Source: Mytilus trossulus (taxonomy: Eukaryota). Taken from it: 64,000 nt of DNA. Positions within the stretch are counted from its first letter, which is position 1, and every line of letters begins with the position of its first letter. The stretch lies in NCBI RefSeq assembly GCF_036588685.1, contig NC_086377.1:55242001-55306000 (forward strand), given 5' to 3'. This document shows, piece after piece, positions 16,714 to 19,251 of the stretch. The position numbers were made by a program, and so were the translations under genes. Under the pieces are notes generated by a model. It ran no database searches. It was not told the origin of the DNA and worked only from the letters and a program-made list of their open reading frames with translations.

Positions 16714-19251
16714 ATGAATACCCAACAAGAAATTATAATGTTGAAAAAGGAATTGTTTAATTTAATGGAAAAAGTCAGGAGATTGGACAAAAAAGAAAGA
16801 GCATCACATCAAACTATTGAAAAGGTAAGTGCAAATGGTTTTTTTTTTTTTTTTTTTTTATTAATATTTCTAATGATGATATGTTAAACGATCAGGTTGA
16901 TTTCTTGTTCTGTTTGATCTTCTTGGCTGATTCTTGTTTAACAAATAATACACATAGGTTGAAAACTGTTTACAATATTTTTTGAACTTTCTAGAAATAA
17001 TTAAATGTCTTCCGGTTGTTAAAAAGTAAATGTTCTGTAAGTACCCTATCAAATCTTCTCTAAAAATTGGATTTATTGGTAGAAGGTATAGAACACCAAT
17101 AACACAAACTGCCAAAATGTCTGGAATGAAAGAAAAAAATCAAATTGAAGAAATTATATTAGTATGTTAAAAAGGAGATTACTTTTGTTTCCTTTCATTT
17201 AAAACACAAAATTCAACCTCTGATGATAAATGAGATGTAATGCTAGGTACCCTTTTTAACTCAATACTATTTACATGATATGATTTTCTCTTTTTACAAT
17301 AAGTACATAAAAACTTAACAAAAGAAACAAATAAAATTGTTAAAGAAAACACAGAAAGACAAACGACTACAATTATCCATTTCCTAGGACTTTCTGTTCC
17401 TTCGTTAGCTGTAAAAAAAAATATTGTTTATATCAATACTTGCTTAATTTATGATAAAAGCTTTATTTTGGAATAAATGGTATATTTTATTTCTTTCTTT
17501 TCTCCCACTTACATAATCTTAAATGCTATGTAAATTAAATGATTTTCTTATTTTATTTTAATTTTAAAATCATTAAAATTAATACTTACAATATATCCCA
17601 TTGATGTGAGTGGTGTTTCCTTCTTCTTCTTCTTCTATTTCTTTCACCCCAATTATAGTGCTTATTCCTATTTAAATAAAATAAATATTTACTATCAAAC
17701 ACTATAAAAAAAATTCTCTTTTTCTTGAATGTTAATTTACATGTTAGAAGTGTGGTTTATTTTCTTTATTGTCTTTACTTAAATATATGATAATATATAC
17801 ACATATCTTACCTAGTGGCATTTTTTCTGTGGATGTTACATCTTTGCTGTAAGTTTCAATGGTTGTGTCCTGAAAAAGATAACCATATCAATGAATAGTA
17901 AACATTATCTTAACTGTTTATTTATTTTTTTATTTTTTTCTTCTTTTAGAATGAAGTTATTGATTTAACGTCTTCCAATGAAGAGGAAGCGATGGATTTT
18001 GAACAGAGTGCTGCTTGTAAAAGCAATGGTGCATGTGGAAGCACCACTCCTAGTAAAAGTGAACAAGAAGATGTAAGTATAACGCATAACTCTTTTATAA
18101 ATGTAGTTCTTTATATTACAATAATCATAATCAAAATATATTGTTTTAACATGAGAAAAATGTAATTTATAACTAATGAAATAAAGATATTTTTTTTTTC
18201 TTAAAAGTTTATAAATTAAATGTTTGGTATAGATTACTTCATTTACCTAGACATATATCTCACTATGTTATTTTCCTTTAAAAAGGAGATAATTAGTTCA
18301 TCATTTCTATGTATTTACATGTACATATCATTACAGACATTAGAAAGAGATATAAAACAAGCTAGTGAGATATATCTCAATGTGAGTATTTAAAATATAT
18401 ATTTTTTAATTTTTAATTTCATCATTAACATGATTAATTCATTTCTTTTTAATATCATTATTGTAAATCATCAAATTATATATCACGTGGTTAATTTCCT
18501 TAGATGGTCACATGATTTACATTTCCTAATATGGTATACAGAAATATCACGTGCAATCCTTATATGGTTTAACTTCCTAATATGGTCGACATGCTAACCG
18601 TTCGACTACTTTTTCACTTGTAAAATCTAATCAAACACAATGTACTTACATACGATGAACATTCTTCCCCATTCACCACTATAATTTTCCCTTGCACTGT
18701 GTCACATAGCTCTTTACTAGATAATGATAGTTCGAAAACACAAGAGGCTTTCACATTGCGCACATTTTCAATCTGATCACTGTTCATTATATGGTTCATC
18801 AACACTCTGTTGATAGATCCTTCTATCTCTCCACTAAAGACTTTCTTGACATCATCTCGACAATCTAATATGTCTTCACTTCTATAACATTCAGCTGTAT
18901 TTGTTGCAACACTTCCCTCATGGCTAAATGACAATAAACAACTCACGACAACAATCAAAAACATGGCGATCATCTTCAATTTTCTATAGAGTGTGAAAGG
19001 TGGAGGTCAAAGGTGACGACACGTGAGTGAATAAAGGAAAGCTTTTATTATTTTTATCTGATTAAAAGAACGATTTTGTTTTAAAGAAAAAAAGAATTTC
19101 ATCATATTTTGTTTTGTTTTCTTATCACTTATTTAAATTTTATTTATTACTTAAAAACGAATACTTTATTACAATTGTATATATGTTTTAGGAACCAATG
19201 GAAGTGGACCTGATTGATACTGTATTAGATGACCAAAAAAGACTATTTTAA
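16714..19251 (+). CDS. Four-exon gene, 112-aa acidic protein with N-terminal coiled coil and VIDLT motif
   Basis: join(16714..16824,17950..18072,18337..18381,19192..19251). Donors GTAAGT, GTAAGT, GTGAGT; acceptors TTTTAG, TTACAG, TTTTAG; all phase 0; no internal stop; AATAAA near 19272. Confidence 0.75.
16870..17120 (-). CDS. Candidate alternative last exon of the membrane protein gene
   Basis: Acceptor TTTCTTTCATTCCAG at 17121 in phase 1, matching the donor at 17590. Encodes ILAVCVIGVLYLLPI...RRSNRTRNQPDRLTYHH-stop, followed by AATAAA. Confidence 0.55.
17179..18973 (-). CDS. Four-exon type I membrane glycoprotein, 229 aa
   Basis: complement(join(17179..17408,17590..17667,17812..17869,18650..18973)). 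Donors GTAAGT, GTAAGA, GTAAGT; phases 0,1,1 are consistent. Signal peptide, Cys-containing ectodomain, Thr/Glu-rich stalk with an NTT sequon, TM WIIVVVCLSVFSLTILFVSFV, then CKKRK and a cytoplasmic tail. Confidence 0.8.

What the first reader, a model, noticed from the sequence alone, without database searches (positions are those of the whole stretch)
17179..18973. Polinton-encoded spliced type I membrane glycoprotein
The 229-aa product reads: signal peptide MIAMFLIVVVSCLLSFS; about 90-aa ectodomain with 5 Cys (ECYRSEDILDC start, loosely LRR-cap-like); Thr/Glu stalk in two small exons with an NTT sequon; 21-aa TM; CTYCKKRK stop-transfer with possible palmitoylation; tail with YHV and a Ser-rich stretch. 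The exon-per-module layout looks like an animal surface receptor, not like the large fusogen envelope proteins reported in nematode Mavericks. It may be an immune decoy, a superinfection-exclusion factor or an attachment protein (inference).
Basis: partly seen in the sequence, partly recalled or inferred. Interest (0 to 1): 0.8.

Follow-up and report, generated by a model that had tools for sequence, protein, structure and literature searches.

The report
Mussel Polinton's spliced surface-protein gene
A virus-like mobile element in a mussel genome carries an intact, intron-containing gene for a predicted small cell-surface protein, interleaved with a likely second gene on the other strand; it likely helps the element manipulate host cells, which is untested.

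Summary
Observation confirmed. Four minus-strand exons (18973-18650, 17869-17812, 17667-17590, 17408-17179) with GT-AG borders add up to 229 codons plus a stop and match RefSeq XP_063437844.1 (Mytilus trossulus, isoform X2) exon by exon. RefSeq isoform X1 uses another last exon (17120-16870). The gene lies inside a 22.9-kb Polinton (945-bp TIRs, 6-bp target duplication), between TIR and integrase: the cargo slot described for nematode Mavericks. Relatives are Mytilus-only among named records, repeatedly tied to Polinton genes. A 28-32% identical paralogue lies 605 bp from another Polinton integrase and shares the cytoplasmic tail motif; six distant unnamed clusters exist. No host parent gene was found. 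Four near-identical sibling copies lack the gene, but they are deletion derivatives that also lack PolB. The ectodomain folds confidently (pLDDT 89); its resemblance to LRR N-caps (GPIb-beta, TLR3) is weak (Z 4.5-5.2). New here: a plus-strand spliced frame is interleaved with it, and its last exon is under purifying selection; other mussel Polinton families carry BIR or CARD genes in the same slot. Splicing was not shown in reads. Best reading: host-modulating accessory surface protein, adenovirus-E3-like, not a fusogen.

The parts
18650..18973 (-). Exon 1: signal peptide plus about 89-aa Cys-capped ectodomain
   Evidence: family alignment A2; AF2 pLDDT 89.3
17812..17869 (-). Exon 2: Thr/Ser-rich stalk
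   Evidence: matches RefSeq X1 and X2 from residue 109
17590..17667 (-). Exon 3: acidic stalk with NTT sequon
17179..17408 (-). Exon 4a: TM helix, basic stop-transfer, tail with conserved basic-Ser motif (isoform X2)
   Evidence: tail aligns with family-2 tail, score 54, 0 of 5000 shuffles reach it
16870..17120 (-). Exon 4b: alternative last exon of RefSeq isoform X1, weaker hydrophobic stretch and different tail
   Evidence: also in M. galloprovincialis models P0008, P0009
16714..16824 (+). Interleaved plus-strand frame, putative exon A (ATG, donor GTAAGT); no second copy found
   Evidence: inferred from splice signals and phase only
17950..18072 (+). Interleaved plus-strand frame, putative exon B, inside intron 1 of the membrane gene
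   Evidence: acceptor seen in 3 of 3 tandem relic copies, donor in register in 2 of 3; dN/dS 0.66-0.90, not informative
19192..19251 (+). Interleaved plus-strand frame, exon C with stop; under purifying selection
   Evidence: acceptor and stop kept in 4 of 4 relics; synonymous:non-synonymous codon changes 7:2, 5:3, 8:1, 7:2
19276..20220 (.). Right terminal inverted repeat; ends ACTACT followed by target duplication TCTGAA
   Evidence: 99.4% identical over 946 nt to the left TIR at C5:55239310-55240252, outside the window
13625..14818 (-). Polinton integrase with chromodomain
   Evidence: Pfam rve E 2e-5 (below cut-off), Chromo E 1.8e-9
13167..13664 (-). Putative minor capsid protein (label from position and recall)
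   Evidence: conserved after INT in many Polinton loci; no family hit
12802..13194 (-). Putative basic core protein (label recalled)
   Evidence: conserved between minor and major capsid ORFs
7401..12850 (-). Putative major capsid gene, interrupted by an insertion of about 4 kb (7627-11674)
   Evidence: contiguous in sibling copies; label from position and recall, no family hit
2823..7145 (+). Protein-primed PolB with endonuclease VII-like insert, split over three frames
   Evidence: polymerase motifs read from the sequence (recalled motifs)

Best explanation
This is an intact, intron-containing gene in the terminal cargo slot of a Mytilus Polinton, predicted to encode a single-pass surface glycoprotein that likely binds a host surface or immune protein to modulate the cell's response to the element. 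Shown: position inside the TIRs, exon structure, family membership across two Polinton lineages, conserved ectodomain cysteines and a conserved cytoplasmic motif. Inferred steps: host splicing and ER targeting; two disulfides capping a three-to-four-rung parallel beta solenoid that resembles a shrunken LRR ectodomain; display on a short O-glycosylated acidic stalk; a basic-Ser tail motif that would be a kinase or adaptor site. The alternative last exon would swap anchor and tail, and the interleaved plus-strand gene would couple expression by transcriptional interference. It would work like an adenovirus E3 immunomodulator, not like an envelope fusogen.
For: Inside TIR/TSD-bounded element, between TIR and integrase, the slot where Widen et al. 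report intron-containing cargo (10.1101/2022.07.12.499685, section 11). Relics at C5:34.47 and 34.51 Mb run from exon 1 into the TIR at 86% identity. Family-2 paralogue 605 bp from a decayed integrase. Gene models from other Mytilus species fuse the ectodomain to integrase (P0007), to a capsid-like C-terminus (P0001) and to a left-arm ORF (P0037) (the last two matched by eye to window and L015 ORFs). Three M. galloprovincialis RefSeq loci lie on three sequences of different length. Cys, Asp-Cys, Gly, Ser, Cys columns invariant in 21 of 21 rows down to 23% identity. Exon 1 dN/dS 0.33-0.74 against 4 relics; Fisher p 0.005 and 0.19 for the 2 tested. Tail homology between families. Same slot in other families holds BIR (2 of 10 ORFs scanned) and CARD and/or PC4 (3 of 10). 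36 of the top 50 VIA rows are LRR proteins by my reading of the titles, top GPIb ectodomain chain 3rfe_A Z 4.5, rmsd 3.5, 79 aligned; a second family member gives TLR3 Z 5.2, rmsd 4.0, 82 aligned.
Against: No ligand, localisation or expression data. Fold scores are below the tool's caution level of Z 8, and Foldseek gave no match at E<=0.001 in PDB or BFVD. The gene is missing from 4 of 4 close sibling copies that still transposed with clean TSDs, so it is not needed in cis, and from 32 of 32 other Polinton-like loci examined over 10-20 kb each side. This copy's PolB and capsid genes are broken. Family-2 copies at C5:30.44 and 65.0 Mb have no Polinton gene in the fetched flanks, and no family-2 TM exon was found. 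The context of the six distant unnamed clusters is unknown.
Confidence: 0.5

Rival explanations
1. Receptor-interference (superinfection exclusion) factor: the surface protein would occupy or down-regulate the entry receptor of related Polinton particles, helping both element and host, which could explain its staying intact in a broken copy.
For: Gene intact while PolB and capsid gene are broken; lineage-restricted and divergent between families; exon 1 tandemly amplified in gene models of three Mytilus species.
Against: The insertion is young (TIRs 99.4% identical), so an intact 690-nt gene needs no host selection. No particle or receptor is known for these elements.
Confidence: 0.15
2. Virion attachment or egress protein: the protein would sit in a host-derived membrane around Polinton particles, or on vesicles carrying them, and bind target cells.
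For: The element has ATPase (Pox_A32 E 1.2e-5) and putative capsid genes; nematode Mavericks carry an envelope fusogen; a second small hydrophobic ORF lies at 1232-1582.
Against: No fusogen-sized signal-plus-TM ORF among the element's ORFs; most other mussel Polinton families examined lack the gene; MFUS-1 is 866 aa with a herpes gB fold, unlike this 89-aa domain.
Confidence: 0.13
3. Captured host gene carried as passive or selfish cargo: a mussel receptor gene picked up with its introns and spread by the element without serving it.
For: Exon-per-module layout and spliceosomal introns, unlike the intronless core genes; nematode cargo is read this way; orphan family-2 copies without nearby Polinton genes.
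Against: No host parent found: own-genome searches with four family members returned only the same C5 copies, though these searches are shallow off the home contig; no relative in other named taxa among 1.84 billion representatives (16 hits); cargo GC 0.26 is below, not like, the 0.34 flank; retained with selection in two lineages 30% identical.
Confidence: 0.17
4. Exon 4a is a prediction artefact or minor form; the real product is the X1 form or a secreted ectodomain.
For: X1-type last exon is used in 4 RefSeq models (P0005, P0006, P0008, P0009) against 2 for exon 4a (P0035, P0020); family-2 models lack a TM.
Against: Only the exon 4a tail has a homologue in family 2; two species' RefSeq models use it.
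Confidence: 0.05

Closest known systems
Nematode Maverick cargo genes wasp and krma (Widen et al., 10.1101/2022.07.12.499685; passages and section 11 read)
   Same: Intron-containing gene in a 2-5 kb variable region between TIR and integrase; lineage-specific content.
   Different: Those encode cytosolic proteases and kinases in a high-GC region; this is a signal-peptide/TM protein in an AT-rich region (GC 0.26), with an interleaved antisense gene and no host parent found.
Maverick fusogen MFUS-1 (same paper, passages read)
   Same: Signal peptide plus single TM encoded by a Polinton.
   Different: 866 aa with herpes gB-like class III fold, against 229 aa with an 89-aa alpha/beta mini-solenoid.
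Adintovirus membrane-active accessory genes PLA2X, GasderminX, cupiennin-like (PMC8502044; passages read)
   Same: Animal Polinton accessory genes acting at membranes.
   Different: Membrane-disrupting virion-module proteins; the paper's main text has no occurrence of 'signal peptide' or 'splic'.
Adenovirus E3 type I glycoproteins such as E3/49K (10.1101/2023.02.23.529489, PMC4858740; abstracts' first lines in the search listing only)
   Same: Diverse, fast-evolving type I membrane immunomodulators in a dispensable variable region of a related (recalled) pPolB virus.
   Different: No sequence or fold link tested or found; functional analogy only.
Small LRR membrane proteins GPIb-beta/GPIX and LRRNT caps of TLR3/TLR5/VLR
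   Same: Best structural neighbours (Z 4.1-5.2); small Cys-capped ectodomain on a single TM.
   Different: 6-13% identity, rmsd 3.1-4.9, no Pfam LRR hit; the domain is shorter and lacks a canonical LxxLxLxxN repeat.

Membership tests
Polinton/Maverick (host element) | Long terminal inverted repeats ending 5'-AG...CT-3' | tested here: met
   945-bp TIRs, 99.4% identical, AGTAGT/ACTACT ends
Polinton/Maverick (host element) | 6-bp target-site duplication | tested here: met
   TCTGAA at both ends; 4 of 4 siblings also have 6-bp duplications
Polinton/Maverick (host element) | Retroviral-like integrase | tested here: met
   rve E 2e-5 (25.2 bits, under the 32.6 cut-off) plus chromodomain
Polinton/Maverick (host element) | Protein-primed PolB | tested here: inconclusive
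   Polymerase motifs visible in 2823-7145 (recalled motifs) and many 1200-1700 aa homologous frames in the genome, but no Pfam or PHROG polymerase hit
Polinton/Maverick (host element) | Packaging ATPase | tested here: met
   Pox_A32 E 1.2e-5, above cut-off, left arm outside the window
Polinton/Maverick (host element) | Major and minor capsid proteins, adenain protease | tested here: inconclusive
   Conserved ORFs in the expected order without family hits; no protease hit among the ORFs scanned
Maverick cargo gene (Widen et al.) | Located between TIR and integrase, with introns | tested here: met
Maverick cargo gene (Widen et al.) | High GC relative to element | tested here: not met
   cargo 0.26 against core 0.37-0.39
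Maverick cargo gene (Widen et al.) | Derived from a host gene family and horizontally transferred | tested here: inconclusive
   no parent found; hosts of distant members unnamed
Class III fusogen (MFUS-1, gB) | Large ectodomain of several hundred residues with fusion loops and trimeric coiled coil | tested here: not met
   ectodomain plus stalk is about 145 residues; model is a compact 89-aa domain
Extracellular LRR proteins (LRRNT-LRR-LRRCT) | Cys-capped parallel beta solenoid fold | tested here: inconclusive
   LRR proteins dominate the VIA lists but best Z is 4.5 and 5.2
Extracellular LRR proteins (LRRNT-LRR-LRRCT) | Sequence match to LRR or LRRNT profiles | tested here: not met
   no such Pfam hit at E<=1 for 9 family members
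Type I membrane glycoprotein | Cleaved signal, one TM, surface localisation, glycosylation | not testable with these tools
   hydropathy and sequon fit; no predictor or bench data

The most novel reading that the evidence does not exclude
Molluscan Polintons are viruses with an adenovirus-E3-like immune-modulation cassette at one end: here an undescribed family of minimal LRR-like surface receptors with switchable membrane tails, interlocked exon-in-intron with an antisense regulatory gene, while sister families fill the same slot with BIR or CARD proteins.
Probability: 0.3. Interest if true: 0.75.

Novelty: new variant of a known kind. Interest (0 to 1): 0.55.

Why it matters
Whether animal Polintons are infectious viruses or only transposons is open. 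A transposon that stays in the nucleus has little use for a surface protein, so a selected, Polinton-restricted membrane-protein family, beside BIR and CARD genes in sister families, points to a life stage that meets host immunity. It gives a small, intact, testable gene in a farmed animal group whose genomes are rich in such elements (10.1101/2025.04.19.649669, passages read). Ten paper searches listed no description of this family, of such a gene in a mollusc Polinton, or of interleaved antisense genes in Polintons; the library lacks most subscription papers, and bioRxiv supplements were not seen.

Tried and rejected
Reads: no RNA holder listed among 24 runs; no reads were laid, so splicing and expression stay untested. 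Pfam, PHROG, PDB sequence and phage tblastn searches gave nothing meaningful for the ectodomain. ESM Atlas: no usable hit for exon 1; for the 229-aa protein only scores <=0.80 to unrelated small single-pass proteins, within chance. IMG/VR (3 scans) and JGI metagenomes (2 scans): no related locus. Foldseek PDB and BFVD: none at E<=0.001; Ostreid herpesvirus ORF59 at E 0.63 in one model did not recur in the other's top 50 and was dropped. No fusogen or receptor L-domain appeared in the top VIA rows; I had suspected an L-domain from a recalled motif. Clustering of all ectodomain hits on C5 was rejected as biology: weak TIR hits are also C5-only, so the search appears deeper on the home contig. 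Stalk similarity between families is not significant (714 of 3000 shuffles). Earlier findings: none. No complex prediction was run because no partner is claimed.

Full report
Observation. The four exons lie on the minus strand at 18973-18650, 17869-17812, 17667-17590 and 17408-17179, with GT-AG borders and phases 0, 1, 1. They total 690 nt, or 229 codons plus stop. A homologue search with exon 1 returned RefSeq LOC134718928 of Mytilus trossulus on a contig of the same length as the window's C5. Its isoform X2 (XP_063437844.1, 229 aa) contains each exon's translation in order. Isoform X1 (236 aa) shares exons 1-3 and ends in another exon, 17120-16870. Hydropathy supports an N-terminal signal (KD 1.98) and one TM (KD 2.83 at residue 165; 2.34 at residue 155 in X1), with a sequon at 145. 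That RefSeq isoform pairs usually rest on transcript alignments is recalled, not checked; no reads were laid.

The element. Window 19276-20220 is 99.4% identical in reverse to C5:55239310-55240252. The ends read AGTAGT and ACTACT and are flanked by TCTGAA on both sides, which defines a 22.9-kb element. It holds an A32-like ATPase, a PolB-like gene split over three frames, a putative capsid gene interrupted by about 4 kb, two small conserved ORFs, and an integrase with chromodomain. Capsid and core labels rest on position and recall. The membrane gene lies between integrase and right TIR. Widen et al. describe this 2-5 kb slot in nematode Mavericks as holding intron-containing cargo (10.1101/2022.07.12.499685, section 11); theirs is GC-rich, ours is 0.26 GC against 0.37-0.39 in the core.

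Is the gene part of the element? Against: the four close siblings (integrase 93-99% identical) on C11, C2, C14 and C12 all lack it. They are 11-12 kb derivatives with duplicated left arms and no PolB, and the window holds the only full-length close PolB match of this family among the 32 listed. A profile of the ectodomain found nothing in 20 other integrase loci or 12 further Polinton-like loci. For: two relics run continuously from exon 1 into the TIR at 86% identity. A second family, 28-32% identical, has a copy 605 bp from a decayed integrase-capsid block about 50% identical to ours. Gene models from M. coruscus and M. edulis fuse the ectodomain to integrase, to a capsid-like end and to a left-arm ORF. 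M. galloprovincialis has three near-identical RefSeq loci on three sequences; I could not see their flanks. Family-2 relics at C5:30.44 and 65.0 Mb have no Polinton gene in the fetched flanks.

Family and selection. The profile search of 1.84 billion representatives gave 16 hits at E<=0.001. Nine are named Mytilus records, one is an unnamed close copy (P0017), and six are unnamed ENA/Logan proteins at E 5e-17 to 2.5e-5. Those six end shortly after the last conserved Cys in sequence that looks like a read-through donor, which suggests the same intron (by eye). Across 21 rows C29, D37, C38, G48, S85 and C90 (full-protein numbering) are invariant and C105 nearly so; C78 varies. Two disulfides, 29-38 and 90-105, are inferred. 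Exon 1 gives dN/dS 0.60, 0.47, 0.33 and 0.74 against four relics, significant in one of two Fisher tests. The exon 4a tail aligns with the family-2 tail around a basic-x-Pro-Ser-Ile-Thr-Ser motif (score 54; 0 of 5000 shuffles). This favours exon 4a as the older last exon. No family-2 TM exon was found.

Fold. AlphaFold2 gave a compact domain with mean pLDDT 89.3 and pTM 0.80, made of short parallel strands and small helices. A distant member gave the same pattern (pLDDT 75). Foldseek found nothing at E<=0.001. VIA-align ranked the GPIb ectodomain chain 3rfe_A first (Z 4.5, rmsd 3.5, 79 aligned); 36 of the top 50 rows are LRR proteins by my reading, 12 are not and 2 are unclear. The second model's best was the TLR3 N-terminus (Z 5.2, rmsd 4.0, 82 aligned).

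Interleaved plus-strand gene. Three phase-0 exons, 16714-16824, 17950-18072 and 19192-19251, give 97 codons plus stop. Its first intron contains exons 2-4 of the membrane gene and its second contains exon 1. Exon C keeps its acceptor and stop in 4 of 4 relics, with synonymous to non-synonymous codon changes of 7:2, 5:3, 8:1 and 7:2. Of the five other frames, in the two relics tested, four are mostly non-synonymous and one reverse frame, which shares third positions, gives 4:4 and 5:3 (Fisher p 4e-5 and 0.005). The relics are related, so these are not independent events. Exon B is weakly constrained, and exon A has no second copy; their joining to exon C is inferred. Exon B contains a SUMO-interaction-like motif (recalled).

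Same slot in other families. Of 10 ORFs scanned from the region upstream of other integrases, 2 are BIR proteins (E about 4e-21), 2 are CARD-PC4 fusions and 1 is PC4 alone. I chose these ORFs by eye. This suggests the slot is used for host-modulating genes.

Mechanism and verdict. Most likely (0.5) the gene is an accessory surface modulator: spliced by the host, displayed on a short stalk, binding a host surface or immune protein, with a regulated tail, in the manner of adenovirus E3 glycoproteins (abstract openings only). Rivals are captured passive cargo (0.17), receptor interference (0.15), virion attachment (0.13) and a wrong last exon (0.05). It is a new variant of a known kind, the intron-bearing Maverick cargo gene, with an undescribed protein family and an unusual two-strand layout. 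Interest 0.55.

Noticed in passing
L105:7416-7745, L106:8692-9021, L113 (C5:64.02 Mb, C8:13.35 Mb, C11:52.91 Mb): Another mussel Polinton family carries a single-BIR (IAP-like) gene upstream of the integrase (Pfam BIR E about 4e-21; L113 copy seen, not scanned).
   Followed up: partly
L103:8254-9123, L108:538-1590, L112:8350-9447: Other families carry CARD plus PC4 fusion ORFs, or PC4 alone, upstream of the integrase; L103:9164-9703 is an unassigned ORF with a hydrophobic stretch.
   Followed up: partly
C11:22897251-22909333, C2:20675385-20686719, C14:25146660-25158027, C12:46617-58497: PolB-less Polinton derivatives whose inverted arms have grown to 2.0-2.7 kb and duplicate left-arm genes (including the ATPase in C11), each with a clean 6-bp target duplication.
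   Followed up: partly
P0001-P0004, P0012, P0013; C5:30.63 Mb; C5:30.215-30.218 Mb: Exon 1, and separately the exon 2/exon B stretch, are tandemly amplified in several Mytilus assemblies and relics.
   Followed up: no
window 1232-1582 (-): Small ORF with two hydrophobic stretches in the left arm, conserved in the related C2:79.26 Mb copy; a second candidate membrane protein.
   Followed up: no
window 2823-3700 (+): PolB frame begins with tandemly duplicated C2H2 zinc-finger and basic repeats (231-nt duplication) and holds an endonuclease VII-like domain.
   Followed up: no
window 7627-11674 and 15085-15297: Host repeats inserted into the capsid gene and upstream of the integrase.
   Followed up: partly
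window 20667-20930 (+): Fragment resembling an LTR-retrotransposon gag just outside the right TIR (recalled resemblance; no Pfam hit).
   Followed up: no
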